Assembly: GCA_041662745.1 (NCBI GenBank)
Contig: JBAZRV010000004.1
Coordinates: forward strand, 6,315-70,314
Length of the DNA stretch: 64,000 bases
Reading direction: 5' to 3'
Origin: Patescibacteria group bacterium
GTDB lineage: Bacteria; Patescibacteriota; Patescibacteriia; 2-01-FULL-39-33
Of the stretch, positions 3,563 through 29,163 are shown in pieces. The first letter of the stretch is position 1, and every line of letters begins with the position of its first letter. Below the pieces are notes generated by a model. The model was not told where the DNA came from. It ran no database searches and was given only the letters and a program-made list of their open reading frames with translations. The translations under genes were made by a program, and so were the position numbers.

Positions 3563-3569
3563 GCGATTT

Positions 3570-4706: not shown

Positions 4707-4711
4707 ATTTG

Positions 4712-5258: not shown

Positions 5259-5320
5259 TGATTCTTAAAGAATTGCCAAAAGCGGGCTTTAAAAAAATTA
5301 TTAGTTTTAATCTTAAATAT

Positions 5321-10820: not shown

Positions 10821-11270
10821 TTAACTTTGATTATTGATCCCATTCTCCCCTTGGTACACGCCTCCGGTATCAATGACCAAGGCGATTTCTGACAAGCGGG
10901 ACTTGCTGACGGGTTGACGCGCCGCCATTCTAACTGCCGGCTTTTCTTCTTTAGGCTTGGCCAAATCAGCCCTTATTTCATCTAAGGTAAAAAATTTACG
11001 CCAAACCTTGAGTTTAGGATTCTTTAAAGTTTGAAAAAAGTTAAGCAAAAATAAATGAAAGGGTTGGCCGTTTATCTTGGCAAAAGCGATAATCAGGGTT
11101 AGAGCCAAAACCGCCAAGCCGGAAACGGCGAATAAAGAAAAATCAAATATCCTATAAAAAATCACGATGATCAATCCGCCGACAATAAGTTCAATGAACT
11201 GACGGACGGAAACCGGTCCGATAATCTTATCTTCAACATCCAAAAATTGTGGCACTACCACCTGTTGCAT
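10821..11270 (-). CDS. PrgI/VirB3-like small T4SS membrane protein
   Basis: QFLDVEDKIIGPVSVRQFIELIVGGLIIVIFY followed by two TM helices resembles the PrgI family. Confidence 0.5.
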   Translation of the reverse strand: MQQVVVPQFLDVEDKIIGPVSVRQFIELIVGGLIIVIFYRIFDFSLFAVSGLAVLALTLIIAFAKINGQPFHLFLLNFFQTLKNPKLKVWRKFFTLDEIRADLAKPKEEKPAVRMAARQPVSKSRLSEIALVIDTGGVYQGENGINNQS

Positions 11271-12692: not shown

Positions 12693-13217
12693 TTAATTTC
12701 CTGCTAACTGTTGGCTCTTTAGGTATTCGTCCAACTCCTGCCGGCTAACGCCCAATTCTTCCAACAGCAGACGGCGCTCCAAGCCGGAAATAGTTGACCA
12801 ATCATACCTGCTTAACATATCGCTCCGACTATTAACCGATTCAACCGGAGCAGGTATAACCGATACTGCCGAATCATTCTCAATTTCTCTGGAAGTGTCA
12901 TTATCCGCAGTTAAAAAATCCTTGGATTGCAACCCCTCAATAAAGGCGTCAATATCGCCAAGATCATCCTGAAAATCCCTAAAACGATTTTTGGCTATTT
13001 CCAAAGCCAAACGCCGCTTAGTGCCATTACTTTGGATAACTGCCTTTTGTAATGCCAACCAAAATTCATTCAAATCAATATCACCCCAAATAACTTGGCC
13101 GATTAAATCCATAACCGCATAAATCTCAGAATCAGATAACTGAAAAGAGCCAAGCCAAGGATTTAACTGCTTTAACTCGTTAATTGTGCCCAGTTCATTT
13201 ACCTGTTGGGTAACCAT
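12693..13217 (-). CDS. Hypothetical protein, 174 aa
   Basis: Complete ORF within the operon. Confidence 0.4.
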   Translation of the reverse strand: MVTQQVNELGTINELKQLNPWLGSFQLSDSEIYAVMDLIGQVIWGDIDLNEFWLALQKAVIQSNGTKRRLALEIAKNRFRDFQDDLGDIDAFIEGLQSKDFLTADNDTSREIENDSAVSVIPAPVESVNSRSDMLSRYDWSTISGLERRLLLEELGVSRQELDEYLKSQQLAGN

Positions 13218-16200: not shown

Positions 16201-16463
16201 GCGGGCATAGCCGTATCTTCGCCTTTCCCGGCAGGATTTACTAAATAATATTCGGGCGGATTACCAAACTGCCAGACTTGATATTCTATGTTTTCACTGT
16301 CAGTCAGTCGTATTCTTTTATCTGTTAATTGTCCTCCACTTGTTATATAACTATTAGTATATGCATAAGAATAATTAGCAGAAATGCCTAAAACTCCGCC
16401 ACCTACTAAGGCGGCTAACAATAAAGTTACAATTATTCTTTTGTACTTTTGATAAAACATCAC
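13221..16463 (-). CDS. VirB6/TrbL-like polytopic membrane protein, 1080 aa, with a long charged C-terminal extension
   Basis: A signal/TM segment, a secreted 100-aa region, a cluster of at least 6 TM helices, then about 600 aa rich in K, D and E that looks coiled-coil. Confidence 0.45.
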   Translation of the reverse strand: MMFYQKYKRIIVTLLLAALVGGGVLGISANYSYAYTNSYITSGGQLTDKRIRLTDSENIEYQVWQFGNPPEYYLVNPAGKGEDTAMPADENGNLVNPESGESVTQATAGRRTEAQSTLSDVIARMLTWILYGLTYGLGWILILVTKAMLAVATFNNFTNHKVVTIGWTVIRDVCNNFFIILLLVSAVGTILHQKNYDFRTMMPKILVAAILINFSKMFFGLMIDASQILMLTFAAPLAQSTGYNVILNALGLPDLMSLNGVADQLTDTGFSTWNLVAAMLFATIFTFVALVVIFCITAVLMYRIVYMLFLVVLSPLYFFGLAFPAASKYTGQVLGDLVKYLIVGPAMMFFIYVSLTTLKDLGNDGRFDDTISYDLQTTGVGGSAALQQEGTAAAGLSASSASNESTVLALSKMGTVEKIINFGLLIGLLVGSLIIGQKLGTAGSSWAGAGMKFLTKQGKRFSGLNLAKTAAKKAPGAIGTAVDDRLGVRQRLYSGLYQAGGKNIPFAREALGGKMASLEAGTTKRFNESIRAVAGGAKIDKKNENQLRNLASGGTKYEKIAATQTLMKKGLIRDDEIDESKKRNNIDLINQARTALTGTELGKEFDDNLRKYNPNLAMNTMYAKEGKINLEKLESDLKTDKIDLNKIMGSMDSATLTNLNEALGGKKDSAGGFDDTLAKFLMKHGAGDLSKLDKAMSSEIKKDIWSGVSHMSFAKKDAQGNNITDASGKVIYDEDSRKEYLSTKYDVAKAYDRSDPEQKEKARKYFSENRNKVLENMHVDGMTADFMRDFGDLASPKELQEKFGDRSKEHKDKIDNALKEAIIGNGSSVDPYDFSRLNSELADARKGLNDATEENRGAAQQAVDQASKNLRDAEEMIKKYVLSKGSFEGISDRVNAENKSNVIGSLKAEDAEKIKWGSLSDVDQKAVARGMDVNTLRVIGARGNNNELIKGVKQRILDEAENDPVKIGYKDLIDQAKKLRSEDEQIEKNLASLRAKRDPTSQNEINTLMQRQLELRGDQVSGRVGERKKINDAIEDFLKQNENYFVDINEDRPKFKPTDWDKKARAIKGGKKGGNFEEEI

Positions 16464-16490: not shown

Positions 16491-19400
16491 TTAGTATCCG
16501 CAGTTGCCATAACGGTTGCAGAGACGAAAATTCAAGGACGGCGAAACATTCACCTGGGCCGCCTTATAAGGACGGGACGCATCTTCTTCGGTATTCAAGA
16601 AAGTCGGCGACTGGTCTTCTCCTCCCGCATACAGGGTCACATCGTACAAGCTCGCCTCAATCGGACTGCCGGCTTGCGCTGAATTGGTTACCACTCTTAA
16701 AACCACTCGATCGCCGATTCCCACTTTATCAGCCGGACCATCACAACTTTGATTCTGACAAACCTTAAAATAAACATCGCCGTCCGCGCCACAGGCATCC
16801 AAATAAGCCTTCCAATCGCTCGGATCAGCGCCAAATAATTGTTGCAACCAAGTCGGCTGTGTCTTATAAATATTCAACTTGATCGGACTAACCACGGGAA
16901 TTGACGCGGCATCAGCCGGTTTGACCGCTGATGTTGCCGGACAACTATTTGAACCGGAACCGTAAGAATCCTTAAAACACGGCACTAAGCGGAAAATGTC
17001 GCCGTAACGCAATTGCTTATCACTCTCGGCGTCATTAGGCGCATAAACCAAATCAAGAAAATACTCAATGCTACTGCTAACGGCATAGCCGGCAAAAGTG
17101 CTGGCATCAGCATTAAAATTAAAATTGCCCTTGCTTTCGCCCCGCTCATCATTGTATTCCCCTTCTTCTCCGGTTCCGGGAGCTCCGCCGCAACCGCCAC
17201 CCACCGTGTTTATCGCCATAAACGCCTTCCAGTCATAACTGTCATGGGCCAGCGTAATCAGACTGCCTTGGCCCAAAGGACAATCAATATCATCATCCAA
17301 TGACTTGGTTTCCGGACAAACGCCATCAGCGTAATCAATGGGAGCAACATCGGCCACGACATTGCCACAATCATCCGGACTGTAATTATCAGTATTGGGA
17401 TCAATGGCTTGTTCGCCGATATCGCAATAACCGTCGCCTATCTCTCGACAGCGGCGCCAACCGCCGGTATAAGTGGCGCAACATGTTTTCTGAGTGGAAT
17501 CAGTGGGGTCAATATTAAGATTGACCTCGTTTTCCGGCAACCAATAACAAGTGGCCGAGCAACAGGGGTTGCCACTGGAGCATTGTTGGCCCAAAGCCGA
17601 GCTGTAACTGGCCGGTTTGCATTCGGCCAAAGCATCCTGCTGTTCCGCATCATAAGTATCCCGCCTTAAGACAATCAAATCCTTAATCGTTATGGAATTA
17701 ACCGAAGCCCAATTATCCCGTACCGTTAATTTAATCGGCACGTGGAAAGCAGCGGGATTGGAAGTTGATCTTACCGGTTCTTGGCAAGCGCCTTTGGTCA
17801 AGTCGTCATTGTATTCTTCAACTGTTTCCGTGGTGCCATCGCCCAAAGGCAAGATGCCGACTTTTGTCTCGCATTCCCGTAAATTCTTATTGGCTAAGCT
17901 GTCATAGTTATAAAAATGATACAGATTAAAAGCGTTAGAGGAAGTGGGGCGGCTAGCCAGAGACAAGCCGGCGTAAGATGATACGTTGCCATCGCCCCAA
18001 TCAATATCATAAGAACGAATAGGCACCTGATCCGGATCAATCTTGGAATTAAAGCTTACTTTAACCGCGCCGATACTGTTAACAATAGTGGGGTTGACCT
18101 GGGCTAAAGTGAATTCCGGCCTAACCAAGCAGAATGACAAATAAGTATTGGCGGGACGGGAGTTATTGGGACAATACAACGTCGGCAAACTCCAAACCGA
18201 GTTATTAGAGCTGATGGCGCCGGAAATATCAGTATAATGCCCTATCAAGGGATCGCTGGATTTATCCGCCTGCCATTGCCATAAACTGTAAGAACGCCCG
18301 AATAATTGCAACAAGTCCGGCTTGCTGACGGAGAAATTGTCAACATAGTATAGGGAATTATCTGATTTCTGACCGGCGCGCGCTTGGTAGGGTGGCGCAC
18401 TGCCGCCGGGGAATTCATAAAAAATCGGTTGATTACCGCCGGAGTCGGGACGAGTATCCCATTCATTGGGGTATTGGCCGTTTTCCGGCGCCACCGTAGA
18501 GCCGAAAGGTTTGTAATCGGTAGCGTAATTGTAGCCGACGGCCGCATAAATGCGGCGATAAATCAGCTTTTTATCCCTCAAAATGCCGATTGCTCCGAAA
18601 TTCCTATCATTGACGCAAAAATATTTATAATTAATCCGACAATCATTTATGGCAATAGAGGGGGTATCTTTGGCAAAACTATGAACTTGAAAATAATTAT
18701 TATCCGCTGATTCTCCGATGGGACGAGAGTTATAAGCAATCTCGCAGTTCAGGGCATTAGCCTGATTAAGATAAGCGGTGCGTTGTCTTCCCTCCAAGGA
18801 TATACCTTCAGCGCAATATAATTTGCGCGTCGGATCATCGGGATCGTTGACTCCCTGACCATTATCAATGCCAATAAAATTCTGGCATAAATTCAAGGGA
18901 TAAAAACCTAATAAAGCGCCATCAGCATCATAGAGGCGACGGCTTTCAGCCAAACAATAAGCGGAACTGTAGAAACAGCCATCAGAAAACAACTCGGCAT
19001 TGCTTGGCGTAACAATGCCCACACCGGAAGGAATAGCATCTCCGGAAATTGAACTGTCTTTAACGCAATCTTTGCCCAAATAATCCAAATATTGCGAACC
19101 GGACGATAAACGACTGGCCCAAGCTTTGTTCTCATTGCCGGAATTAACCACTTGAACCAACTTGTAGCAATACTCCACCACCTGTTTGCCGGCAAAATTA
19201 CCCACAACGGCTATACCGCCCATTTTATCGCCCATGCCGGCCGGCTTATTGAAATCCAAGAACTTGGCAAACCCCAGAACATCTCCGGTTACTGCGGGAT
19301 TGGGGTCGGTCAGATCCTTGCCGAACTCCGAATCTTCATCAGTAATAATCCTTAAGCCGAAAGTGGAAATTCCCAAGTCTACACCGGCCGCCTGGATAAG

Positions 19401-22400
19401 CATGCCAGCCAAATTGCCCAAAACTCCTCCGGAAGTGTCAAACTTCTTAGCGGTATGCCAAGGCAGTTCAACATGCAAGACAATATTAACCGGAACAAAA
19501 CTCAATAGCTGTCCGTAACCGGCGACAGCCACCGCCCCCCAACCGCCCCAAGAATCTTCATCAGCCAAGTTAAGCGAATTGGGAGCAAAAACTATGTCCA
19601 GCAAATTGCCCAGACTGCCGAAAATAGAATTGAAAAATTGACTAATGCCTGACCAAGTATTGGTCCAGAAACTGGAAGTTTGTCCTTCACAATCTTCAGT
19701 TGAACCCCTGCAACCTCCATAAAGGTCATTCAAAGATTGATTTTGCTGAGAAATCGTTTGCGCCACTCCGACTGCTCCGGCTGAAGCGCCGCTGTCAACA
19801 AACACTTTGGCGCATTTATTGGTGCCGGGATTAGAGCAGTGGACTGAGTCTTCACAATTCGCGATACCGCCGGTACAAGAACACGGCTCAGCCGTTGTCT
19901 CGCAAAAATAAGTATAATCGCTGATCGGCTTGGCGTACTTTTCGGCTAAGTCTGCAGTAATACAATTATTATTGGAAGAGAAAGCTTCTGTGGAGTTAAC
20001 GCAATTGGCAGTATTAACGACGCTCTGACAAGTGCTATTGGCATTGTCTTCCGGATTATCGCACGAGCAAGGCTTTAATCCTCCGCCAGATGAGTCATTA
20101 AGCGTGGCTAAAACGGAATATTCGCAAACCCTGCCACTGGGATTGCTTTGCACCCAGGATTGCACTTCCTCTTGAGCCGGAGTGGTCACGGAGCTTGTGT
20201 CCGAAACGGTAATTAACCCGTTGCCGGCCGGAACATAACAAATAGGCAAAGGAATGATGCCTAACGGTTTGGCGCAAACTAAATTCTTCCACATGCCGAC
20301 TGACAGGGCTCCGCCAAACAGGGTGTGACTGGCCGTATCGCCGATAGCGATAAAAATGCCGTCAAATTGGAATTTATAAATAAACGGATAACGGAAGAGC
20401 GGCGACCAAGTCGGACTGATTCTAAACGAGGTAGCTTTGGTTTGTTTGGCATTAGTGTCAAATTTCAACGCCTCCATGCCGGAATCATTCACGCCTTCGC
20501 CGAACAAGCCGAAATTACTCGTGTATTGCGACACGTCAAGAACCATAGTTCTCTTTTCCAAGCAATAATACAAAGGATAGCGCTCGCTGTAATAACCGGA
20601 AAAATCGCTTAAAGTCTCACCGCGAATGGAATCAACCGGCCACCATTGCAAACACTGCTGATTATTGGCCGGGTCCGGCGTCAAACAATAGCCGTATTGG
20701 CCATAAAAATAATTATTACCGTCATTATACTTGCAAGCCGGAGCATTCAGGCTGGGATAAACGCGACAAGTGCGATCAACATAGCCATTGGCGCTGGATT
20801 TAAGCAACGGCTTAAGATTGACGTTATCCCACAAGGTATAACCGCCGAGTTTGGAGTTATCTATGCCTTTGCTGCCGTCGGGATTCATATTGAATAAGGC
20901 GAGTTGCACTCCGGAAACATTGTCTCCCGTACGGAAATGCACTATTACCTGCCTCCAGGGCAAGCCGGTAGGAATCTGCATTATCTCGCCTTTGACCCAG
21001 TCGCCTTCATAAACCCCGCCATCAACAATGGCTAAGCCGGGACGCGGCTGACTCTTGGAATTAAGAAAGCGCAAACGCAATTCCGCATAAGGCAAGCGAC
21101 CGCCGGAACCCGGACCTTGTAAATCCTTGGTATGAACCCAGGCGGACAAAAAATATTCCTGATTGGGCAGTATATCAACCGACTCGGAAATAACGCCCCA
21201 ACCCGAATTAACTTTTAAATAACCTACGCCATCTTTGGCCTTGGCGCCGTCACGGCTGATATTGACATAGCTTGATTGCCAATTCCTGTAGACGATATCA
21301 GGATTGCCGCTGGCGCAATCAGAATTGCTGGCGCAATAATAAACGGCCAAACGCCAGCCCAACGGCTGAGTCGTAGCGCCGAAAGTCTCTTCAAAATTAC
21401 CATTAACCACATTAGACGACTGGCCGACTTGCGTCATGGCATCAAAAGAATAATAGCCAACGCGTGAAAAACCGGATTTATTGGCATCCAACGAGGGAGA
21501 ATAGTCATCGTTGCTAACAGCATCATTAGTCAGATAATTATTGCAAATACCGTTATCGCCCAAAGAATTGCAAGCGCTGACCTCCAAGCAAGAATCCTGA
21601 TCGCTGAAAAAATACGGAGCTAAAGTGGATGACTGCCCCTCTTCTTTCTTCTCAAAAGTAGAGCAAGTCAGCCAATTGGCGCAGGCGCGGTTGGGTTGCG
21701 ATTTCAAAATAACATTAGCGTCTTTGGGTTTGCCTTCAGCGGTCGCGGCTGTCGGCGGAACCGAGCGGGATAAACCGTTAATGCCTTGCGGATAATTATT
21801 ATCCCGAGTCAAACGGCTGGAAAAAGCCAACGAGGTGGTGGCGCTATTAATCAGATTGCTGTAATCAAGCTGACTGCGATCATTGAATAAAACACAGCCT
21901 TTATGATAATCAACTTGACCGTTGCAATCGCCGCCGCTAACCTTGGAATTCAAAATATAAGAAACGCTGGCCAAGCCCACTTTATCCCTGACTAAATCTA
22001 TCGGTGATCCGTCTTTGGTCTTGAAAGCCACGCGACAAGTCAATGATTTGGGGTTATCCACGGCTAAATAAAGATAATGGCCAAAATTATCGGAGAGATT
22101 ATTACTTACGTTTTGGACATCGCTGCAAATTATATCGCCGACTTGCAGATTGTCGGACAGGACATACAAAATATTTTTCTTAATAGACACATCTGCGCAG
22201 ACATCCTTGCCCTCACAGCGTTGCGGGATAAGATTGGACGCTAAATTTTCTAATGGATCAATATATTCGCTGCAACCGGATTGTTCGGCTGAACAGGACC
22301 CGACCCAGCCGCTGTAAGCCGGATCAGACGATTCTTGCAGAGTCACTGAGTTGATCGGGCCGAGCGGTTGCAATTTGTCCGTCGCCGCCTTATAGCTTAA

Positions 22401-25400
22401 GCCCAGCGTTTGCTGGTAAGTGGTAGGACAAGTCTCGGTGGTGCCGGATTTAACCCATTTATCCAAATTATTGGTATTATCAGCGGAAGTAAACTGGCAA
22501 ACCTTGCCGTGCGGATCCTTGAAGTAAGCCAAGGTGTTATTCCCGACCCACTCTTCGCACCATAAATTTTCGGCTGAGCATAGATCAGTGGAATAACGAT
22601 CCGGATCGTTTTTAATATAGATATCCCGATAACCGGTAATCTCATCCCATTTGTCTATCAAAGGCAAACCATAGCGAGTGCAACCCTTATCATTCTTGGC
22701 GCAGGCATATTTATCGTCATTGACCAAATAAACCAAGGTATCAGTTGCCACAAAAATATCATCATGATTAACGCTATTGGCGATATTAAACGATTGCGCC
22801 TGAGGCGCGCTGGAATTAAAGGTATCAATCAAGGCCTCGCAACCGGCCGCTTCGGGGCGACACAAGGAAGCAAAGGATCTTAAGTAAGCTGTTTTATTCT
22901 TACGATCCGAGTAACCGGCGCAACCCAGCATTTCTCCGACGGAGCAACGTCCGGACTGGGTATCCTGGCAAACACCCTCAGCTTTGGCCTTGCTGCCGTC
23001 AGGATCATCCAATTTATTGTCGCAAGAAAGCGGAGTGAACCAAGAATTTTCTATGGCGTAAACTTGGTTAGTGATTTCCTTAAGAATAACATTATCCAAA
23101 TAAACGATCTGGCCGTTGGGCATGGAAAATTCCAAGTAATTGCCGTCGCCCGGTTCCCAGGTTACGAATAACGGCCCCAGTTCATAACGCTTCCAGTCTG
23201 CCGTCAACTGCGTCCGCGGACTGATTAGATTTTCTCCGAATAAACGGCTGGCAGAAAAATAATTATTGCCGGCGGCGGCAGAGTTGTCATTCCAATTAAC
23301 ACCGCTCTTTTCGGCAAATCTGATATTGTCAAAATAATAAGAAGCATTGCCTTTAGCCCAGAATGACAGGGTATAGGCCTTGCCCTTGTTAATTGTTATC
23401 GGATAATGAATGGTGGAATTATCAACCTTATTAGATAAAGAATTACCGCCGGGGAAGGTTGACTCGGAAGAAATGAATAAGCCGTTTTTGCCGCCATTGG
23501 CATCCTCCCATAAATCCAAAGCGGTGCTGCTGGCGGTAAAATTAACCACGCTAATGGCATTTTTGACGTTATTACCCCGGTTGCCGGTGTAAGCGCGGCA
23601 GCCCTGAGCGGCGGCAGGACAAGTTTTTCCCTGTCCGGGGATAGCCATATAAATACATTCACTGCTATCATTCCACCAACCGCTATGGCTTTCGCAATTG
23701 GCCTTGGCCTCGGTAAACGAGGTTTCGGTCATGGTGCGGCGATACGGGTGGCAATTATCGGAAACGGAAACAGTGCGGGATAATAAACGATAATGAATAT
23801 TGCCGTTTACATCATACAATTCGCGGCAATCCGGGTTGCTAACCATATCATCCTTGGTACAGACGCCAAAATCATAACGATCGCGATCCGCACCGCGAGC
23901 GCTCGTTGGATCATTGCAAACGGCATTGCCCGAAGCGTTATAAGCCAAATTAACGCAAGGAGCGCTGCCATTGCCAACGCCGGCCGTTTCTGGGTCGCTG
24001 GCGATCTGTGATTTCTTTAAGCTGAACGCCACCAGCTGGTAACCGGTGATATCGGAACCCTCCCAAGTATAATAAGCGCCGTCATCAACCGATGGTTTCT
24101 GGCAGGCCTGGATTTGACTATAATATTCTTTCTGCTCCCCGCCCTGGCCGGCAACGTCAAGATTGGTGAATTCATCGCAACCGGCATAACTGGCAGAACA
24201 AGTCTTGAGTTTGTTGTCGGCGATGAACTGCCTGAAAGCTTGATTGATAAAACTGGTCTCTTCTTGATTGTATAACTGATAGCCGGCGCATTCCTTAGGA
24301 CAAGCATCAAAATCCTGCGCCACACCCGGTATTGACGGGTCACCATTAAGGGGGCGATATAATTCACAACCGACTTCTTGCGGCGTACAAACACCGGAAT
24401 ACAGGGCGCAATTGGCATTCTTATTCTTTAAGACGCCAGTTAGCTCCTGTTGATTTTGGGGCCATTGCAAGCCGGCAAGATCCGGATAAGCATCATAACA
24501 ACTAAAGTAACTGGGGGCCTTCTTAAGGTAAGCCACTTGTTCAATCGGCCGGGTTGAAGGATTATAATCGCTATAATTACTGGGATAAGTAGCATTAAAA
24601 GAAATCGCCTCAACCTTGGCATTATCAATAATCGCCTCCTGGCCGGCCGATCCGGTGGAGAACCACAATTCCAGTTTAGCGGCGTTATCCGGCGCCTTAA
24701 ATTTACAGAAAAACCGACTGGAAGTGGCAAAGGAAGTCGGAGTAAACTTCAAAGCCAATGTTTGCGGGACACTGCCATCCTTGTCTCTGGCCCAGTCGCA
24801 AGTCGCCGAAGAAGTGGCTACCTGCAAAACGGCTCCGGCCTTGGATTTGAATCTCAAAAAAGTCTCAATCGGAACTGCCTGGTCAACGGAAGCTTGATAA
24901 CCGTCAATAGCCAAAAAATAATATTGGCCGGGAGTAACTTGGATTGCCTTATTAACATTAGCGCTATCCAAACCACTTAAATAGCCGATCTTGGCTCTGG
25001 TGTTATCTGCCAAGGTCAGATTGCTCCAATCATATAAAGTGCCGTCAAAGCCGCCGTTAATGACAACATTACCGCCCAAATTTGATTTAGTGCGGATGAA
25101 TTGGCTGCAGCCGTCGCTTAAAGACGAGCAAGTCTGAGCATCACGATCAAAATACATTTCAGTTGCGCCCTCGCGCGAAGAAACAAGGACTGATACGGCG
25201 CCGACGCCGCAAGCAGTACTGATGGGATAAAATTCAAAATCATCAAGATATAAATCGGCGTAAACCCCGGCAGGATTGCGCGCCACCAAAATCACCCGTT
25301 CATTGTCGCCGGAATTAAAATTCAAATTAGCTTCGCGCCAACCGGAGGAACCGCTGGTCAATTGCAAATTATTCAATAAGGAAGGCCATAATGAGCTGTC

Positions 25401-28109
25401 TTGATCAAAAGACGTAAAGTCTTTGCTATCGGCCCGCACTTCCACATTAACATTGCCGTTAATAGACCCTTTATAATAAAATCTAACATTATAATTGGTG
25501 TTCTTCTCTACCGGTATAGCCGGCTCGTAACTGATCAGATCGGCCGGAGCATAAAGCGTCTTAATAAAAAGCGCGGCGGCGCCACTGTGTTTTTCGGTGG
25601 TAACGCGAAGATGGCGATTGTTGTTGTCAATAAACGCCAAAGTCCAAGAAGCGGCTTTCCAGCTTTCCTGGCTGTTAAGCAACGCTTCCAAACCGAGATT
25701 CGGCTTGTTTATCACTTCGGCAGTATAGACATCGGGGAATAATTTAGCGTCATTGCATAACCGCAATTGGCAAGACACGCCATTGTCCGGAACATTGCAG
25801 AAAGGATTCTGAGGGATATAACTGGCCTGATCTGCGGCTTCGGAATACTGGAAACTGCAATAATTGCCGCCGGTAGTCTGATGGAAAACGCAACCTTTGC
25901 CCGTGACATCCAATTTACACATGTCCGAGGAGCAGGGCGAAGCCAATCGCAAACGCGAATTGGCGCTGACTTGATGGCCGGCCTGCACCCACCAATCCTT
26001 ATCGCTTCTGTTGAAAGTTATTATTTGATTGATAGTCTCAGGCGGAGCAAGTTGCGTACCGCTGCCCAAATTAGTCCAAGTCTGACTGGACGGATTGTAA
26101 TTGATGGCATACCAACGACAACCGGCCACTTGCGCATTGCAATTTCTAAAATCCAAGGTATTGGTTAAATAAGAAGAGGCATTGCCGGCGCGCGAAGCGT
26201 AGGTCTGGCAGGAATTGACTCTGGCCGGACAAGTCTTCCCCAAATCCCAAACGCGACGCTCTTCATTGCAATAGCCATAAGCCAAGCAAGCGCCGTTCTC
26301 ATCCTCTTGCAGACATTGTTGCTCGTCGGAACAGTATTCCAAGCGGCCGATGGTTCCGCTTTGATCGTCTTTATTCAGATTAAGAGCGCCGTAACCTTGG
26401 CGGCGACAACTGGTTTCATACGCTTTCAGCGTCCAGTAAGGGTCAACCATCCCCTTAAAGTTATTGGTGGTGCAACCGTTTTTGCCTATGCCTTCATAAC
26501 AATTGATCAATTCGCCCAGAGTATATTCGCGATTACTGTTAGAATTCTTAATAAAATTAGCGGCTTCTTCCCAACCCACCGGTACGATGCGGTATTGGCG
26601 TAAAACCAAAATAGAACGGTAAGGAATGGCTGTCTGCAAGGAGTTGGACTGTTCTGATCGAGGAGAAAAAACCCGGTTCTTGATTTGATCAGGCAGATCA
26701 ATCACATAGGTTTTGCTTTTAACCGCTTGGGCCAAAGAATCATCCATGACGCAGTCCATTGGTCCGGGATTAGTTTTGGCTGAGTCATCGCAAGAAGAAA
26801 GCTCAACTATTAAATCAACCTTCCCGCCTTGCTGGCCCTGGCTGCCGGAAATGGCGTTATTTATTCTTTCTTCAGCCCCCTTAGTGCCTTCAGTAATTAT
26901 CGGACTGGCCGAAGGATTAAACAAAGCGGTCAAGGCGCCGGAAAGTATGCTGGAACCTTGACTGGCCAGAGAATTGGAACTACCGCCGGATGAACCGCCG
27001 GATGATGATTGCGTCAAAGAAAACAAGCCCTCTTTTAATAACCCTAACGATTCGGCTACGACCGTATCCATGAATTCAAACGGCACAGCCATAGCTGTTT
27101 CCGTCCAAGTAATAGCGTATTGCGAGTTGCCTTTTTTCAACATGGCATCAGCCATCATTTCATGAAGCATGGTGCCGGGAGTAAGGATTTTACCATTAAA
27201 GGTTGCCTTGCTCAGCCAACCCTGATTGGTGCTGGCTTCATAAGTTTTGGCTTTGATCTGCTGATTAACCGCCGCATCGCGCAAATCCAAAGCTAACAAT
27301 GAAGCGGTGATATCATTTTCTCCGGGGCGCAAGGCCAAGGTGTACTCTAAGGGAAAATTTAGATTAGTTACGGCCTCTTGCCAATTGGTCATGATTTCGG
27401 AAAAAGTACACCTGACACGGGGAGTCGTCTGGCCTAATTGAATATTAATCAATAGCCGTACCTGCAAATCAGGCTGGCAGATATCCACGCCGTAATGCTG
27501 GCTGAAGTTATCAATAAAATCACCCAAAGCCGAGTCGGCGGCATTAAGCAGATAGGCATTCCATCCTTCGGTAATATAGGCCGGCTTCTGACCCTTAAGC
27601 GCGGTAAAAGCGATCTTGGTGGCTTCACGCGTCACGCTTCTAAGCAAGGTATCCAAGGCTTTAGAGGCGGAACTACTCAGGGCGGATAAAAATTTCCTCC
27701 GCCTTTCATCGTTCTTCACTTTTCTAATTTCTGACTTCAAATCGGCTTCAATTTGGTCTCCCGTGCTGGCATCGGAAATATACTTATTACAAACGGTCTG
27801 AGCTTCAGTTAAAGCGCTAAGTTTGGCGCCGCATTCAAATGCCGTACAAGGTATGGCCAATGCTGCTGTTTTCAATTCTTGGCACATTGCTAAAGCTGTC
27901 TTGGCAGGAACACCGGCTTCCGCTTCAGCTTCCGCTTCAGCTAAATCTATTTTTGATTGAGCTAATTGTTCATCAAAAGCCGCCTGGGGATCAACTTGAG
28001 CTAAGACATTTAAAGGGTAAAGAATCCACAAGCAACAAAAAACTACTCCCAATAAAACCATCGGGCCATAAAATCTTACACGATTATACTTATTCAGATT
28101 TAAAAGCAT
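16491..28109 (-). CDS. Giant cysteine-rich secreted or surface protein, 3872 aa, probably an adhesin or effector of the T4SS-like system
   Basis: A single 11.6-kb ORF with an N-terminal signal/TM segment (MVLLGVVFCCLWILYPLNVLAQV). It has very many Cys residues and repeated lectin/CBM-like segments (NGNFEE...GW...). No stop codon occurs across 11.6 kb. Confidence 0.7.
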   Translation of the reverse strand: MLLNLNKYNRVRFYGPMVLLGVVFCCLWILYPLNVLAQVDPQAAFDEQLAQSKIDLAEAEAEAEAGVPAKTALAMCQELKTAALAIPCTAFECGAKLSALTEAQTVCNKYISDASTGDQIEADLKSEIRKVKNDERRRKFLSALSSSASKALDTLLRSVTREATKIAFTALKGQKPAYITEGWNAYLLNAADSALGDFIDNFSQHYGVDICQPDLQVRLLINIQLGQTTPRVRCTFSEIMTNWQEAVTNLNFPLEYTLALRPGENDITASLLALDLRDAAVNQQIKAKTYEASTNQGWLSKATFNGKILTPGTMLHEMMADAMLKKGNSQYAITWTETAMAVPFEFMDTVVAESLGLLKEGLFSLTQSSSGGSSGGSSNSLASQGSSILSGALTALFNPSASPIITEGTKGAEERINNAISGSQGQQGGKVDLIVELSSCDDSAKTNPGPMDCVMDDSLAQAVKSKTYVIDLPDQIKNRVFSPRSEQSNSLQTAIPYRSILVLRQYRIVPVGWEEAANFIKNSNSNREYTLGELINCYEGIGKNGCTTNNFKGMVDPYWTLKAYETSCRRQGYGALNLNKDDQSGTIGRLEYCSDEQQCLQEDENGACLAYGYCNEERRVWDLGKTCPARVNSCQTYASRAGNASSYLTNTLDFRNCNAQVAGCRWYAINYNPSSQTWTNLGSGTQLAPPETINQIITFNRSDKDWWVQAGHQVSANSRLRLASPCSSDMCKLDVTGKGCVFHQTTGGNYCSFQYSEAADQASYIPQNPFCNVPDNGVSCQLRLCNDAKLFPDVYTAEVINKPNLGLEALLNSQESWKAASWTLAFIDNNNRHLRVTTEKHSGAAALFIKTLYAPADLISYEPAIPVEKNTNYNVRFYYKGSINGNVNVEVRADSKDFTSFDQDSSLWPSLLNNLQLTSGSSGWREANLNFNSGDNERVILVARNPAGVYADLYLDDFEFYPISTACGVGAVSVLVSSREGATEMYFDRDAQTCSSLSDGCSQFIRTKSNLGGNVVINGGFDGTLYDWSNLTLADNTRAKIGYLSGLDSANVNKAIQVTPGQYYFLAIDGYQASVDQAVPIETFLRFKSKAGAVLQVATSSATCDWARDKDGSVPQTLALKFTPTSFATSSRFFCKFKAPDNAAKLELWFSTGSAGQEAIIDNAKVEAISFNATYPSNYSDYNPSTRPIEQVAYLKKAPSYFSCYDAYPDLAGLQWPQNQQELTGVLKNKNANCALYSGVCTPQEVGCELYRPLNGDPSIPGVAQDFDACPKECAGYQLYNQEETSFINQAFRQFIADNKLKTCSASYAGCDEFTNLDVAGQGGEQKEYYSQIQACQKPSVDDGAYYTWEGSDITGYQLVAFSLKKSQIASDPETAGVGNGSAPCVNLAYNASGNAVCNDPTSARGADRDRYDFGVCTKDDMVSNPDCRELYDVNGNIHYRLLSRTVSVSDNCHPYRRTMTETSFTEAKANCESHSGWWNDSSECIYMAIPGQGKTCPAAAQGCRAYTGNRGNNVKNAISVVNFTASSTALDLWEDANGGKNGLFISSESTFPGGNSLSNKVDNSTIHYPITINKGKAYTLSFWAKGNASYYFDNIRFAEKSGVNWNDNSAAAGNNYFSASRLFGENLISPRTQLTADWKRYELGPLFVTWEPGDGNYLEFSMPNGQIVYLDNVILKEITNQVYAIENSWFTPLSCDNKLDDPDGSKAKAEGVCQDTQSGRCSVGEMLGCAGYSDRKNKTAYLRSFASLCRPEAAGCEALIDTFNSSAPQAQSFNIANSVNHDDIFVATDTLVYLVNDDKYACAKNDKGCTRYGLPLIDKWDEITGYRDIYIKNDPDRYSTDLCSAENLWCEEWVGNNTLAYFKDPHGKVCQFTSADNTNNLDKWVKSGTTETCPTTYQQTLGLSYKAATDKLQPLGPINSVTLQESSDPAYSGWVGSCSAEQSGCSEYIDPLENLASNLIPQRCEGKDVCADVSIKKNILYVLSDNLQVGDIICSDVQNVSNNLSDNFGHYLYLAVDNPKSLTCRVAFKTKDGSPIDLVRDKVGLASVSYILNSKVSGGDCNGQVDYHKGCVLFNDRSQLDYSNLINSATTSLAFSSRLTRDNNYPQGINGLSRSVPPTAATAEGKPKDANVILKSQPNRACANWLTCSTFEKKEEGQSSTLAPYFFSDQDSCLEVSACNSLGDNGICNNYLTNDAVSNDDYSPSLDANKSGFSRVGYYSFDAMTQVGQSSNVVNGNFEETFGATTQPLGWRLAVYYCASNSDCASGNPDIVYRNWQSSYVNISRDGAKAKDGVGYLKVNSGWGVISESVDILPNQEYFLSAWVHTKDLQGPGSGGRLPYAELRLRFLNSKSQPRPGLAIVDGGVYEGDWVKGEIMQIPTGLPWRQVIVHFRTGDNVSGVQLALFNMNPDGSKGIDNSKLGGYTLWDNVNLKPLLKSSANGYVDRTCRVYPSLNAPACKYNDGNNYFYGQYGYCLTPDPANNQQCLQWWPVDSIRGETLSDFSGYYSERYPLYYCLEKRTMVLDVSQYTSNFGLFGEGVNDSGMEALKFDTNAKQTKATSFRISPTWSPLFRYPFIYKFQFDGIFIAIGDTASHTLFGGALSVGMWKNLVCAKPLGIIPLPICYVPAGNGLITVSDTSSVTTPAQEEVQSWVQSNPSGRVCEYSVLATLNDSSGGGLKPCSCDNPEDNANSTCQSVVNTANCVNSTEAFSSNNNCITADLAEKYAKPISDYTYFCETTAEPCSCTGGIANCEDSVHCSNPGTNKCAKVFVDSGASAGAVGVAQTISQQNQSLNDLYGGCRGSTEDCEGQTSSFWTNTWSGISQFFNSIFGSLGNLLDIVFAPNSLNLADEDSWGGWGAVAVAGYGQLLSFVPVNIVLHVELPWHTAKKFDTSGGVLGNLAGMLIQAAGVDLGISTFGLRIITDEDSEFGKDLTDPNPAVTGDVLGFAKFLDFNKPAGMGDKMGGIAVVGNFAGKQVVEYCYKLVQVVNSGNENKAWASRLSSGSQYLDYLGKDCVKDSSISGDAIPSGVGIVTPSNAELFSDGCFYSSAYCLAESRRLYDADGALLGFYPLNLCQNFIGIDNGQGVNDPDDPTRKLYCAEGISLEGRQRTAYLNQANALNCEIAYNSRPIGESADNNYFQVHSFAKDTPSIAINDCRINYKYFCVNDRNFGAIGILRDKKLIYRRIYAAVGYNYATDYKPFGSTVAPENGQYPNEWDTRPDSGGNQPIFYEFPGGSAPPYQARAGQKSDNSLYYVDNFSVSKPDLLQLFGRSYSLWQWQADKSSDPLIGHYTDISGAISSNNSVWSLPTLYCPNNSRPANTYLSFCLVRPEFTLAQVNPTIVNSIGAVKVSFNSKIDPDQVPIRSYDIDWGDGNVSSYAGLSLASRPTSSNAFNLYHFYNYDSLANKNLRECETKVGILPLGDGTTETVEEYNDDLTKGACQEPVRSTSNPAAFHVPIKLTVRDNWASVNSITIKDLIVLRRDTYDAEQQDALAECKPASYSSALGQQCSSGNPCCSATCYWLPENEVNLNIDPTDSTQKTCCATYTGGWRRCREIGDGYCDIGEQAIDPNTDNYSPDDCGNVVADVAPIDYADGVCPETKSLDDDIDCPLGQGSLITLAHDSYDWKAFMAINTVGGGCGGAPGTGEEGEYNDERGESKGNFNFNADASTFAGYAVSSSIEYFLDLVYAPNDAESDKQLRYGDIFRLVPCFKDSYGSGSNSCPATSAVKPADAASIPVVSPIKLNIYKTQPTWLQQLFGADPSDWKAYLDACGADGDVYFKVCQNQSCDGPADKVGIGDRVVLRVVTNSAQAGSPIEASLYDVTLYAGGEDQSPTFLNTEEDASRPYKAAQVNVSPSLNFRLCNRYGNCGY

Positions 28110-28116: not shown

Positions 28117-29163
28117 TTAAGTTGAAGTTGCTGTTGAAGAAACTATGCGCTTTTCTAATTGGCTGATGAACACCTGTTTCAATTCATCATCGCCAATGGT
28201 GTCCAAAATAACGCTATCACCGCCGGATTTAATCAGGATCTGCCTGATTTGCGCGCCGGACAGCTGTTTAAAATCAGCCATAGTGGTAACGCCGAATGAC
28301 TCCAAATTAACATTGGCCCAACCGCTCGTAGCGGTAGCTAAAGCATCAACGGTCAAATCTGTTTGGTTAACTAAAGCATCATCAACGCCCAAATCTCCGC
28401 CAATGGCGTAAGAAGAAAAAACTGTCGGATCAATCAGGCCGTATTGCTGCAATTGTTGCGCCATAGTCGGATTATTCTGCAAATATTGAGCAAAAGTCTG
28501 CATTAATTCATCATCGGTGGTATCGGCCAGATCCTGATCGCTAATGCCGCTGCTTTTTAGCATCTGTCTGATAATATCCGGAGTCAAAGCCGAATAATTG
28601 TTGGTCTGGCCGGCAGTTGCCGTTAGGGGCGCCGAATCAGTGGAACCGGATGGCAAGACGCCGGTATCGGAAGGGCTGGCAGTAGAATCCATGGTAGGCA
28701 ATCCCGTACATTTTTGGCCTTGCGGACAGTTCGGATCAGTCCCCCTATCCACCTCAATTTTATCGTTAAGGCCGTCGGAATCGCTGTCTTTAAGATAGGG
28801 ACTGGTATGATAAACGCTTAATTCAAGATTATCAGCCAGGCCATCGGCGTCGGTATCGCGGGTCATCATGTCCCTTATTTGCGCTTGTTGCAAAGCTAAC
28901 CTCTCCGCGCGGGATTTATTACCGGCCTTAACTATATCTTGAAAAGGATTTTGGCTGGCGAAAAAAAACTGCCAAAAACCAAAAACAAGGGCCATTAACC
29001 CGATTGCCGCGATTAAAACTGTATGCATTTTTTCCTTGCCGGTAAGCGATTTACCTAAGCTTGAGTCATTGCCTGAAGCGGGGGTATCGCCCACTTCCAG
29101 ATTCTTCAAGTAATCAGCTTCTTTATCTTCACTTATCGGCCGGGGTTGTTCACTACCTTCCAT
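28117..29163 (-). CDS. Membrane-anchored protein with thrombospondin-type-3-like Ca-binding repeats, 348 aa
   Basis: A TM helix (LIAAIGLMALVFGFWQFFF) is followed by the DTDADGLAD and DSDSDGLND repeats. Confidence 0.45.
   Translation of the reverse strand: MEGSEQPRPISEDKEADYLKNLEVGDTPASGNDSSLGKSLTGKEKMHTVLIAAIGLMALVFGFWQFFFASQNPFQDIVKAGNKSRAERLALQQAQIRDMMTRDTDADGLADNLELSVYHTSPYLKDSDSDGLNDKIEVDRGTDPNCPQGQKCTGLPTMDSTASPSDTGVLPSGSTDSAPLTATAGQTNNYSALTPDIIRQMLKSSGISDQDLADTTDDELMQTFAQYLQNNPTMAQQLQQYGLIDPTVFSSYAIGGDLGVDDALVNQTDLTVDALATATSGWANVNLESFGVTTMADFKQLSGAQIRQILIKSGGDSVILDTIGDDELKQVFISQLEKRIVSSTATST

What the first reader, a model, noticed from the sequence alone, without database searches (positions are those of the whole stretch)
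16491..28109. Giant 3872-aa cysteine-rich extracellular protein
One uninterrupted ORF accounts for about 18% of the window. It has an N-terminal signal/TM segment and an EAEAEAEA tract near the N-terminus. Cys density is high throughout, which suggests disulfide-rich extracellular domains. NGxFEE...GW segments recur and resemble carbohydrate-binding or lectin modules. Its C-terminus ends in ...RYGNCGY. Proteins of this kind are likely determinants of host-cell interaction.
Basis: seen in the sequence. Interest (0 to 1): 0.6.

Follow-up and report, generated by a model that had tools for sequence, protein, structure and literature searches.

The report
Giant secreted protein in T4SS operon
This real 3872-residue gene from an ultrasmall Patescibacteria (candidate phyla radiation) bacterium encodes a secreted, disulfide-rich protein with four sugar-binding-type modules that belongs to a large unnamed family almost always encoded inside the type IV secretion gene cluster, so it is probably the part of that machine that grips the host cell.

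Summary
ORF 16491-28109 (-) is intact, 3872 aa and 18% of the window. It has a cleavable-type signal peptide and no other membrane segment. Cys is 3.41% against 0.83% in the other 38 window ORFs.

It is a real gene. Independent assemblies carry 3852-3881 aa orthologues, and dN/dS against one of them is 0.09.

It belongs to an unnamed family: 1952 clusters at 50% identity match its N-terminal profile. The 124 full-length members have a median length of 2810 aa and a median Cys content of 3.5%.

The anatomy is a signal peptide, a family-defining N-terminal domain, conserved Cys-rich beta segments with a recurring C-x6-C hairpin, four mutually homologous CBM4/9-type jelly rolls, a conserved C-terminal WGDG domain, and a lineage-specific tail.

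The gene lies in one co-directional cluster: TSP3 membrane protein, giant, VirB6-like, PrgI/VirB3, TrsD, VirB4. The TSP3 gene is directly upstream wherever upstream sequence exists. VirB6 follows immediately in 16 of 18 loci, even at 25-30% identity.

Best reading: the extracellular host-binding component of the Patescibacteria Gram-positive-type T4SS. Function is inferred, not shown. Most of the protein matches no known family or fold.

The parts
16491..28109 (-). Giant ORF, 3872 aa plus stop codon
   Evidence: an identical protein is called on ENA contig ERZ27249449:k141_530852; dN/dS 0.088 against the L002 orthologue
27996..28109 (-). Signal peptide, residues 1-38 (basic n-region, hydrophobic core, VLA|QV)
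   Evidence: hydropathy; an N-terminal hydrophobic segment is present in 118/124 family members; AxA-type ends are seen in the homologues
27675..27995 (-). Variable mature N-terminus, residues 39-145, including the AEAEAEAEA tract (57-65)
   Evidence: low conservation; the EA tract is absent from 124/124 relatives
26430..27674 (-). Family-defining N-terminal domain, residues 146-560 (GQKPxxITEGW, ILTPGT, RIVPVGWE motifs; two conserved Cys pairs at 211/234 and 440/453). No known family or fold.
   Evidence: alignments; 1952 clusters match its profile; no Pfam, NCBIfam or PDB match; the AF2 model is unreliable at pLDDT 41
25713..26429 (-). Cys-rich segment 1, residues 561-799, with C-x6-C hairpins at 627-634 and 657-664
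   Evidence: invariant Cys
25212..25712 (-). CBM4/9-like jelly-roll module 1, residues 800-966; absent from most family members
   Evidence: Pfam CBM_4_9 8.7e-7 (29.8 bits against cut-off 25.9) and Endotoxin_C 8.7e-5; hhalign 97-98% to modules 2 and 4; column occupancy about 0.25 in the family
24600..25082 (-). CBM4/9-like module 2, residues 1010-1170 (starts VVINGGFDG), preceded by C-x6-C at 994-1001
   Evidence: hhalign 97-98%; motif
23583..24599 (-). Cys-rich segment 2, residues 1171-1509. Most conserved part of the protein; beta-rich, with AF2 pLDDT about 85-95 over most of it.
   Evidence: no solved-structure match other than the adjacent CBM
23040..23582 (-). CBM4/9-like module 3, residues 1510-1690
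   Evidence: Foldseek matches to CBM4-2, CBM16 and CBM22 (prob 1.0, TM-target 0.55-0.69); similar matches to phage receptor-binding and tail-fibre proteins; hhalign
21417..23039 (-). Cys-rich segment 3, residues 1691-2231, with C-x6-C hairpins at 1750, 1803, 1844 and 1939
20775..21416 (-). CBM4/9-like module 4, residues 2232-2445 (starts VVNGNFEE...PLGW)
   Evidence: hhalign 90-98% to modules 1-3; motif
20520..20774 (-). Conserved Cys-rich segment, residues 2446-2530 (CRxYP...C...GYC...C..WWP)
18528..20519 (-). Variable region, residues 2531-3194, including a Cys cluster at 2680-2810 and a Gly-rich, mildly hydrophobic stretch at 2850-3060
   Evidence: low occupancy and conservation; dN/dS 0.05-0.14 against the close orthologue
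17670..18527 (-). Conserved C-terminal domain, residues 3195-3480 (PFGS..P..WD; SY.IDWGDG; ends DNW). This is where most family members terminate.
   Evidence: no Pfam or PDB match, so the PKD-like idea is not supported
16494..17669 (-). Lineage-specific C-terminal extension, residues 3481-3872, Cys/Asp-rich at 3497-3610
   Evidence: present only in the window protein, L002 and P0043; dN/dS 0.126
28117..29163 (-). Upstream partner gene: 348-aa single-pass membrane protein (TM 45-70) with thrombospondin-type-3 Ca-binding repeats; 7 nt from the giant's start codon
   Evidence: Pfam TSP3_bac 1.7e-6; TM; a homologue is directly upstream in every locus with upstream sequence
13221..16463 (-). Extended VirB6/TrbL-like polytopic membrane protein (1080 aa; TM region about 125-440, long hydrophilic C-terminus); 27 nt after the giant's stop codon
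   Evidence: weak TrbL hit 0.0012; pLS20_p028 2e-4; the L020 homologue carries TrbL_3; TM; synteny
12693..13217 (-). 174-aa cluster protein; no TM, no family match
11273..12685 (-). 470-aa cluster protein; no TM, no family match; conserved in distant T4SS loci
10821..11255 (-). PrgI/VirB3-like small membrane protein (144 aa)
   Evidence: PF12666 PrgI, weak here and unmarked in homologous loci; TM
10091..10774 (-). TrsD/TraC-like protein (227 aa), related to the VirB4 N-terminal region
   Evidence: PF26593 TraC-like; TraC_F_IV weak
8182..10086 (-). VirB4 ATPase (634 aa)
   Evidence: P-loop_TraG 3.5e-30, AAA_10, DUF87; 71-73% identical in distant loci
7568..8137 (-). 189-aa protein with an N-terminal TM and an ectodomain of about 150 aa. 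Placeholder candidate for VirB8; not tested.
   Evidence: a homologue sits in the same position in L022; the VirB8 assignment is inference only

Best explanation
The ORF encodes a Sec-exported giant surface protein stabilised by many disulfides. It is a conserved, operon-embedded accessory component of the Gram-positive-type (MPF-FATA-like) type IV secretion system of Parcubacteria-group Patescibacteria (Buchananbacteria, Falkowbacteria, Magasanikbacteria and relatives).

Proposed mechanism:
(1) The signal peptide is cleaved. This is inferred from the AxA motif.
(2) The conserved N-terminal domain (146-560) holds the mature protein at the cell surface. It would dock onto the co-conserved TSP3-repeat membrane protein encoded 7 nt upstream, and/or onto the extended VirB6 encoded 27 nt downstream. 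This is inferred, because there is no LPXTG motif, lipobox or second TM segment.
(3) The rest of the protein forms a long, rigid, Cys-cross-linked beta-rich array. It presents three to four CBM4/9-type jelly-roll modules that bind glycans of the host cell envelope.
(4) That contact positions the VirB4/VirB6 translocon against the host.

The role is analogous to the PrgB-type adhesins of Gram-positive conjugation systems, or to the VirB2/VirB5 pilus of Gram-negative and Saccharibacterial systems.

Shown: the gene is real and under purifying selection; the protein has export and disulfide signatures; the CBM modules are present; the family is large; the synteny with T4SS genes is conserved. Inferred: surface retention, glycan binding, and any role in T4SS function.
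For: Gene reality: full-length orthologues exist in independent assemblies, and dN/dS is 0.04-0.14 in every region alignable to the L002 orthologue (residues 140-3872).

Export: the window protein has a signal peptide and no other convincing TM segment, and 118/124 relatives have an N-terminal hydrophobic segment.

Disulfides: Cys is 3.41% against a 0.83% background. 73/132 Cys are conserved in at least 8/10 homologues. Many are invariant at about 28% identity. The C-x6-C motif occurs 15 times, and 10 of those are invariant.

Lectin modules: Pfam CBM_4_9 above gathering; four mutually homologous modules; Foldseek matches to CBM4/16/22 and to phage receptor-binding proteins.

T4SS linkage: gaps of 3-46 nt separate the genes from the TSP3 gene through to p189. 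Downstream lie VirB4, TrsD, PrgI and VirB6-like genes. The TSP3 gene is directly upstream in all loci with upstream sequence. VirB6 is directly downstream in 16/18 loci with downstream sequence, including relatives only 25-31% identical, although the genes flanking the block differ.

Relative rates: the giant is 26-31% identical where VirB4 is 71-73% identical, as expected for a host-facing surface component.

Literature: the Patescibacteria T4SS is of monoderm conjugation type, usually lacks a relaxase, and 'no adhesins, such as PrgB, were detected' (PMC12102498). The T4SS is essential for epibiotic growth in Saccharibacteria (PMC10633639).
Against: No experiment or expression data exist.

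The KsgA gene is also part of the conserved block, so conserved order alone does not prove a shared function.

In two relatives of about 2600 aa the T4SS genes are displaced by 4 kb (L019) or absent within 10 kb (L025), while the TSP3-giant pair persists. The giant can therefore be separated from the T4SS genes.

No anchoring motif was found, so the protein might simply be released.

Glycan binding by the CBM-like modules is untested, and such jelly rolls also serve as protein-binding or structural domains.

About 75% of the sequence, including the signature N-terminal domain, has no recognisable fold or family. A catalytic or pore-forming activity could be hidden there.
Confidence: 0.55

Rival explanations
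1. It is a general cell-envelope protein, such as an S-layer, coat or generic adhesin, that works with the upstream TSP3 membrane protein. It is only a neighbour of the T4SS genes and has no functional link to secretion.
For: The invariant unit is KsgA-TSP3-giant. In L019 and L025 the T4SS genes are displaced or absent nearby. Sec export suffices to reach the surface of a monoderm. Very large surface proteins with adhesion domains are common in Patescibacteria regardless of T4SS (PMC13059738).
Against: VirB6 follows immediately in 16/18 loci, across divergence at which the genes flanking the block have changed (LeuRS instead of FemAB-MFS upstream). Intergenic gaps are 7 and 27 nt with no terminator-like site between the genes.
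Confidence: 0.2
2. It is an offensive secreted effector or enzyme. The unannotated N-terminal domain or the Cys-rich segments would carry a cell-wall-degrading (VirB1-like), pore-forming or toxic activity, targeted to the host envelope by the CBM modules, to breach the host for the T4SS or for feeding.
For: CBM4/9 modules are usually appended to glycoside hydrolases. VirB1-type hydrolases are mostly missing near virB4 in Patescibacteria (PMC12102498). There is a weak Endotoxin_C hit. The N-terminal domain is predicted to be largely helical and carries invariant acidic residues. Giant proteins of predatory Omnitrophota are implicated in cell-wall degradation (bioRxiv 10.1101/2023.11.21.568195).
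Against: No hydrolase, peptidase or toxin family is detected in this protein or in three distant relatives. No solved-structure sequence match exists. Endotoxin_C is itself a CBM-like jelly roll, and Cry domains I and II are absent. The AF2 model of the N-terminal domain is too poor to support any fold.
Confidence: 0.15
3. It is an assembly artefact, chimera or decaying pseudogene that happens to stay open.
For: Metagenomic origin; the ORF is extremely long; a related long-read assembly (L017) shows the gene split into six pieces.
Against: The same protein is called on an independent ENA contig. Orthologues of 3852 and 3881 aa at 87-89% identity exist in other assemblies. There are 124 full-length relatives. 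dN/dS is 0.088 with dS 1.15. The L017 splits lie at adjacent or slightly overlapping ORFs in one 802-kb contig, consistent with frameshift errors.
Confidence: 0.01

Closest known systems
Patescibacteria MPF-FATA-like type IV secretion cluster (Quinonero-Coronel et al. 2025, PMC12102498; Wang et al. 2023, PMC10633639)
   Same: The window carries the published core in the published order: VirB6-like, PrgI/VirB3, TrsD (TraC-like), VirB4. comF lies next to it, as reported for class ABY1. There is no relaxase or coupling protein nearby, and the location is chromosomal.
   Different: The published repertoire contains no giant secreted protein and states that no adhesin was detected. The Saccharibacterial clusters instead carry arrays of small VirB2-like pilins. 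Here a gene of 2400-3900 aa and a TSP3 membrane-protein gene precede virB6.
PrgB / Antigen I/II-type adhesins of Gram-positive conjugative T4SS (pCF10)
   Same: Large Sec-exported surface protein encoded at the head of a monoderm T4SS operon; presumed to make the cell-cell contact.
   Different: No sequence similarity to PrgB domains. No LPXTG sortase signal in this protein or in any of 124 relatives. About three times larger, Cys-rich, and carries CBM4/9 modules.
CBM families 4, 9, 16 and 22 (Pfam CBM_4_9, galactose-binding-like jelly roll), including the same fold in phage receptor-binding proteins and Cry toxin domain III
   Same: Four modules of 160-210 aa. One scores above the Pfam gathering threshold. 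One was modelled and superposes on solved CBM4-2, CBM16-1 and CBM22-1.
   Different: The modules are not attached to any recognisable glycoside hydrolase. They are separated by conserved Cys-rich segments, and each of the last three is preceded by a disulfide-type Cys motif. The ligand is unknown.
Very large surface proteins of other Patescibacteria and DPANN (Absconditicoccaceae proteins over 1500 aa, PMC13059738; Omnitrophota giant genes, bioRxiv 10.1101/2023.11.21.568195)
   Same: Reduced-genome, host-dependent cells invest about 1% of the genome in one exported multi-domain protein with lectin or adhesion modules. The Omnitrophota giant genes are likewise next to a secretion system.
   Different: Different domain content (no FN3, Ca-adhesin repeats, ConA or peptidases detected). 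No tandem repeat architecture. High conserved Cys content. A specific, conserved position inside a T4SS operon.

Membership tests
CBM_4_9 / CBM4-9-16-22 jelly-roll modules | Sequence match to Pfam PF02018 at or above the gathering score | tested here: met
   29.8 bits against cut-off 25.9, E 8.7e-7, residues 836-896. Also found in distant relatives P0046 and P0084; P0073 is below cut-off.
CBM_4_9 / CBM4-9-16-22 jelly-roll modules | Beta-jelly-roll fold superposable on solved CBMs | tested here: met
   In the AF2 model of residues 1200-1950 (pLDDT 74.7), the module at about 1510-1690 matches 2y64, 2zex, 4xup and 8xmz with prob 1.0 and TM-target 0.55-0.69. Only module 3 was modelled.
CBM_4_9 / CBM4-9-16-22 jelly-roll modules | Carbohydrate binding (ligand-contacting residues, measured affinity) | not testable with these tools
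   No ligand information. Binding-site residues are not conserved across CBM families, so they cannot be read from sequence.
Patescibacteria MPF-FATA-like T4SS gene cluster | VirB4 ATPase with the TrsD/TraC-like gene immediately upstream | tested here: met
   P-loop_TraG 3.5e-30 at 8182-10086; PF26593 TraC-like for the 227-aa gene.
Patescibacteria MPF-FATA-like T4SS gene cluster | VirB3/PrgI and VirB6 membrane components near virB4 | tested here: inconclusive
   PrgI is weak here but unmarked in homologous loci. VirB6 is supported only by sub-threshold TrbL (0.0012) and pLS20_p028 (2e-4) hits, polytopic topology, and TrbL_3 on the L020 homologue.
Patescibacteria MPF-FATA-like T4SS gene cluster | The giant protein is a recognised component of the system | tested here: not met
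   It matches no T4SS profile in Pfam or NCBIfam. It is not mentioned in PMC12102498, PMC12857230 or PMC10633639. Its link to the system is synteny only.
Gram-positive T4SS adhesins (PrgB type) | C-terminal LPXTG sortase anchor | tested here: not met
   No LPxTG anywhere in the protein, and none in the last 60 residues of 124 relatives.
Gram-positive T4SS adhesins (PrgB type) | Homology to PrgB/AgI/II adhesin domains | tested here: not met
   No such Pfam family at E up to 1; no PDB sequence match.
Gram-positive T4SS adhesins (PrgB type) | Signal peptide and location in the T4SS operon | tested here: met
Cry delta-endotoxins | Three-domain architecture (Endotoxin_N helical bundle, Endotoxin_M, Endotoxin_C) | tested here: not met
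   Only Endotoxin_C, at 23.4 bits, overlapping CBM module 1. No Endotoxin_N or Endotoxin_M. The Cry structures align with rmsd above 20 A.
PKD domain (considered for residues 3320-3480 because of the IDWGDG motif) | Match to PKD profiles or solved PKD domains | tested here: not met
   No Pfam PKD hit in the protein or in 11 homologous segments at E up to 1. The profile search of PDB found nothing. The fold was not modelled.
Repeat-type giant adhesins (RTX/Bap/Ig-repeat) | Long arrays of near-identical tandem domains | tested here: not met
   Self-BLASTP finds no internal repeat at E up to 10. Only four divergent CBM modules and short C-x6-C motifs recur.

The most novel reading that the evidence does not exclude
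In this large branch of Patescibacteria the giant protein is the missing extracellular half of the type IV secretion machine. A single disulfide-stapled polypeptide of about 2400-3900 aa would replace the VirB2/VirB5 pilus. Docked on VirB6 and the TSP3 protein, it would bridge symbiont and host, recognise the host by its glycans, and possibly form or guard the conduit through which the symbiont takes up or delivers macromolecules. Its N-terminal domain and Cys-rich modules would then be new folds dedicated to this role.
Probability: 0.15. Interest if true: 0.85.

Novelty: new variant of a known kind. Interest (0 to 1): 0.6.

Why it matters
Patescibacteria are a large share of bacterial diversity. 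They live attached to other cells, and their T4SS is the only T4SS known to be essential for its owner's growth (PMC10633639, PMC12857230). What it transports, and how it touches the host, is unknown.

A published survey of the system found no adhesin (PMC12102498). Here a very large, unannotated family fills that position in the operon for one major branch. It has at least 1117 clusters at E<=1e-30, and every member looked up carried the name 'hypothetical protein' or no name. It brings four lectin-type modules and a dense conserved disulfide framework, at a cost of about 1.2% of a genome of 0.8-1 Mb.

This gives a concrete candidate for host recognition and specificity in uncultivated groundwater Parcubacteria-group lineages. 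It supplies defined fragments (CBM modules, N-terminal domain) for binding and structural work. It also offers a marker gene whose fast divergence could track host range.

Tried and rejected
- The full-length search of the 5.8-billion-protein index timed out. Searches with single segments were limited by the word index and first suggested a rare family of 3-34 fragmentary hits. The exhaustive profile search corrected this to 1952 clusters.
- Sequence searches of the PDB found nothing beyond E of about 1 CBM hits. Queries were the whole protein and profiles of the N-terminal, central and C-terminal regions.
- The AF2 model of the N-terminal domain from a 9-sequence alignment failed (pLDDT 41), and its Foldseek search was empty. 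No fold claim is made for residues 146-560.
- PKD-like reading of the C-terminal WGDG domain: not supported.
- A hidden VirB1-like hydrolase or other family in the N-terminal domain: no consistent weak Pfam hits in 11 homologues.
- DGR targeting of the giant: rejected. The window's DGR has a single VR, in another gene.
- VirB2-like pilins in the window: none seen among the ORFs inspected.
- Promoter and terminator scans were at or below chance and uninformative.
- Literature searches for a prior description of this family found none in the held library. This does not exclude a description elsewhere.
Full report
**1. The observation**

The window has one uninterrupted minus-strand ORF at 16491..28109, encoding 3872 aa. 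It covers 18.2% of the window.

- A hydrophobic N-terminal segment spans about residues 11-40 and ends in VLA|QV.
- An AEAEAEAEA tract lies at residues 57-65.
- The C-terminus is ...RLCNRYGNCGY.

Cys is 3.41% (132 residues). The other 38 ORFs of the window average 0.83%, giving a binomial P of about 2e-40. The only other Cys-rich ORFs are zinc-ribbon proteins.

Two qualifiers apply:
- Cys are clustered, not spread evenly. Four 100-residue blocks have none.
- The literal motif N[GP]xF[ED] occurs only twice, at 1018 and 2236.

**2. The gene is real**

- The identical protein is called on an independent ENA contig.
- A GTDB representative MAG of Candidatus Buchananbacteria (L002) carries a 3881-aa orthologue.
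- An NCBI MAG carries a 3852-aa orthologue (P0043) on a 958-kb contig.
- Against L002, dS is 1.15 and dN/dS is 0.088. Every region from residue 140 to the C-terminus lies between 0.04 and 0.14, including the lineage-specific tail.

Frameshift, chimera and pseudogene explanations are therefore rejected.

**3. Organism and family**

All named relatives are Patescibacteria of the Parcubacteria group: Buchananbacteria, Falkowbacteria and Magasanikbacteria. From my own knowledge, GTDB places these in class ABY1. I did not test that.

Word-index searches gave only a few fragments. An exhaustive profile search with the N-terminal region found 1952 clusters at 50% identity with E<=1e-3, and 1117 with E<=1e-30. 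Most of the top 150 are 2000-3900 aa, and the shorter ones appear to be fragments.

The 124 full-length members have these properties:
- Median length is 2810 aa.
- Cys ranges from 2.45% to 5.25%, with a median of 3.5%.
- 118 have an N-terminal hydrophobic segment.

None has an LPxTG motif near the C-terminus. Those with a source name are 'hypothetical protein'. NCBIfam has no model for the family. Pfam sees only CBM_4_9, plus one MopE motif in one relative.

**4. Anatomy (residue numbers)**

| Residues | Feature |
|---|---|
| 1-38 | Signal peptide |
| 39-145 | Variable; the EA tract is found in no relative |
| 146-560 | Family signature domain (GQKPxxITEGW, ILTPGT, RIVPVGWE; two conserved Cys pairs) |
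| 561-799, 1171-1509, 1691-2231, 2446-2530 | Cys-rich segments |
| 800-966, 1010-1170, 1510-1690, 2232-2445 | CBM modules 1-4 |
| 2531-3194 | Variable region |
| 3195-3480 | Conserved C-terminal domain (SYxIDWGDG ... DNW), where most relatives end |
| 3481-3872 | Extension shared only with the closest orthologues |

The N-terminal signature domain has no Pfam, NCBIfam or PDB match. Its AF2 model from only 9 sequences is unusable at pLDDT 41.

In the Cys-rich segments, 73 of 132 Cys are conserved in at least 8/10 homologues. Dozens are invariant in a 15-member alignment at about 28% identity. A short motif, consensus [KT]TC-x5-GC-x2-[YFW] (C-x6-C), occurs 15 times. Ten of these are invariant in the ten genome-derived homologues. 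Profile-profile comparison also detects the motif as a repeat (82-88%). One such Cys motif immediately precedes each of CBM modules 2, 3 and 4.

The AF2 model of residues 1200-1950, built from 35 sequences, has pLDDT 74.7 and pTM 0.63. The Cys-rich part from about 1240 to 1500 mostly reaches 85-95 and is beta-rich.

Evidence for the four CBM modules:
- They are homologous to each other at HH probability 90-98%.
- Module 1 passes the Pfam CBM_4_9 threshold and also hits Endotoxin_C, which is the CBM-like domain III of Cry toxins.
- Modelled module 3 superposes on CBM4-2, CBM16-1 and CBM22-1 with prob 1.0 and TM-target 0.55-0.69.
- It also matches the same fold in phage tail-fibre and receptor-binding proteins.
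- Module 1 is missing from most relatives.

I suspected that the C-terminal conserved domain was PKD-like. Neither Pfam nor a PDB profile search supports this.

There is no tandem-repeat architecture.

**5.

The gene sits in a co-directional block. Intergenic gaps from the TSP3 gene through to the 189-aa gene are 3-46 nt. The order on the minus strand is:
1. KsgA.
2. A 348-aa single-pass membrane protein with thrombospondin-type-3 Ca-binding repeats; its stop is 7 nt before the giant's start.
3. The giant.
4. After 27 nt, a 1080-aa polytopic VirB6/TrbL-like protein.
5. A 174-aa protein.
6. A 470-aa protein.
7. PrgI/VirB3.
8. TrsD (TraC-like).
9. VirB4.
10. A 189-aa membrane-anchored protein.
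11. ComF.

This matches the monoderm-conjugation-type T4SS described for Patescibacteria, including the ABY1-specific neighbourhood with comF and the absence of a relaxase or coupling protein (PMC12102498). The surrounding genes are chromosomal housekeeping genes: parAB, topA, dprA, der, pth, relA, tmRNA and tRNAs.

**6. Conservation of the linkage**

I examined 24 related loci and compared them by tblastn.

- A TSP3-protein homologue lies directly upstream of the giant in all 23 related loci that contain upstream sequence, and in the window itself.
- 18 loci, counting the window, have usable downstream sequence. A VirB6-like gene follows immediately in 16 of them. Four of the distant ones (L020-L023, 25-31% identical) also continue into PrgI-TraC-like, with VirB4 where the sequence reaches.
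- In those distant loci the upstream neighbourhood has changed, from FemAB-MFS to LeuRS.
- Two relatives of about 2600 aa are exceptions. In L019 a PKD-protein gene and aspS intervene, and VirB6 is 4 kb away. In L025 no T4SS gene lies within 10 kb.
- VirB4 is 71-73% identical where the giant is 26-31% identical. The giant therefore diverges much faster while staying under purifying selection.

**7. Interpretation**

Shown:
- It is an exported protein (signal peptide, no other convincing TM segment).
- It has a conserved framework of paired-looking Cys.
- It has three to four lectin-type jelly rolls.
- It is encoded within a T4SS operon of a lineage believed to live attached to host cells.

Inferred: it is the extracellular host-contacting component of that T4SS. 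I propose that the mature protein is held at the surface through its N-terminal signature domain, by the co-conserved TSP3 membrane protein and/or the extended VirB6. The CBM modules would bind host envelope glycans.

This would make it a functional counterpart of two known things. One is the PrgB-type adhesin, which a published survey did not find in Patescibacteria. The other is the VirB2 pilin array of Saccharibacteria.

It is not a member of the PrgB family: it has no LPXTG motif and no sequence similarity. My confidence in this specific mechanism is about 0.55. My confidence that it is a genuine exported surface protein genetically coupled to the T4SS is much higher.

**8. Rivals**

- **T4SS-independent envelope protein or adhesin paired with the TSP3 protein (0.2).** The two loci where the T4SS genes are displaced favour this, as does KsgA being part of the conserved block. 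The 16/18 immediate adjacency at low identity argues against it.
- **Secreted effector or enzyme with a hidden catalytic or pore-forming domain, targeted by the CBMs (0.15).** This cannot be excluded, because about 75% of the protein has no assignable fold. However, no hydrolase, peptidase or toxin signature appears in this protein or its relatives.
- **Artefact or pseudogene (about 0.01).** Refuted.

**9. Novelty**

The general idea is known: reduced, host-dependent cells carry very large lectin-bearing surface proteins (PMC13059738; bioRxiv 10.1101/2023.11.21.568195).

In the library searched I found no description of any of the following:
- this family;
- its signature N-terminal domain;
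- its conserved disulfide modules with the C-x6-C hairpin;
- its fixed position between a TSP3 membrane protein and VirB6 in a T4SS operon.

I therefore class it as a new variant of a known kind. The claim is limited to what that library holds.

**10. Limits**

- There are no expression, localisation or binding data.
- Disulfide pairing could not be read from the model, because its coordinates are not exposed.
- Only residues 1200-1950 have a usable structure prediction.
- Only the best 150 of the 1952 family hits were visible, so the outer limits of the family and its distribution by class are not established.

Noticed in passing
window 50866-55238 (- strand): A complete diversity-generating retroelement that is not linked to the giant gene. 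It has a reverse transcriptase gene at 51423-52532 (RVT_1, 4e-24) and an adjacent NYN-domain gene at 50866-51402. The template repeat is at 52892-53020. The variable repeat is at 53354-53482, at the 3' end of a 631-aa ORF (53343-55238) with no family match. Within the repeat, every TR/VR mismatch is an A in the TR.
   Followed up: partly
window 3461-6858: Two pairs of perfect inverted repeats: 3461-3561 with 5074-5174 (101 nt), and 5172-5258 with 6683-6769 (87 nt). They bracket ORF 3570-4706 and a large serine recombinase gene (5186-6823), next to tRNA-Ser (6764-6858). They could be invertible segments or an assembly artefact. A second large serine recombinase (45889-47151) lies next to tRNA-Met and tRNA-Leu (47240-47441).
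   Followed up: no
window 293-2636 (+ strand): Tandem paralogous genes at 293-1066 and 1370-2149 are 82-88% identical at the nucleotide level over about 600 nt. A third partial copy lies at 2522-2636. They have no family match and no TM segment, and local GC is higher (0.515) than in the rest of the window.
   Followed up: no
L018 6198-6548; L020 7721-8092 and 23031-23393: Small genes of the 23S_rRNA_IVP/bAvd family (the DGR accessory-protein fold) sit beside KsgA and even inside the T4SS cluster in related loci. Whether DGRs diversify T4SS-associated proteins in those genomes was not examined.
   Followed up: no
L019 592-1332; L020 2637-3368; L021 4404-5156: A DsbA/Thioredoxin_4-type gene lies 5-9 kb upstream of the giant gene in three distant relatives. 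It is a candidate oxidase for the many extracellular disulfides. No such gene was found among the ORFs of at least 150 aa in this window.
   Followed up: no
L021 1-2347: Two unusually long proteins (367 and 387 aa) with the T4SS_pilin (PF18895) domain lie about 8 kb upstream of the giant gene in one relative. No VirB2-like pilin was seen in the window.
   Followed up: no
L004, L005, L006, L010, L012, L015 (record titles): Six GTDB-representative MAGs carrying this Patescibacteria-type locus are titled 'uncultured Gammaproteobacteria bacterium'. The gene content (KsgA-TSP3-giant-VirB6, FemAB, MFS) matches the Buchananbacteria loci, so the record titles look wrong.
   Followed up: partly
L017 6316-17505: In an 802-kb contig (ERZ21878410 contig_4) the orthologous giant gene is called as six consecutive ORFs of 1232, 541, 581, 666, 512 and 190 aa. 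This pattern is typical of frameshift errors in long-read assemblies. Such splitting, together with the truncation of short contigs, explains why index searches returned only fragments of at most about 1470 aa.
   Followed up: partly
window 42426-42962 (+ strand): A SocA/Panacea-domain antitoxin-like gene (3e-19) lies in a low-GC stretch (0.385) between parA/tRNA-Met and a B12-binding radical SAM gene.
   Followed up: no
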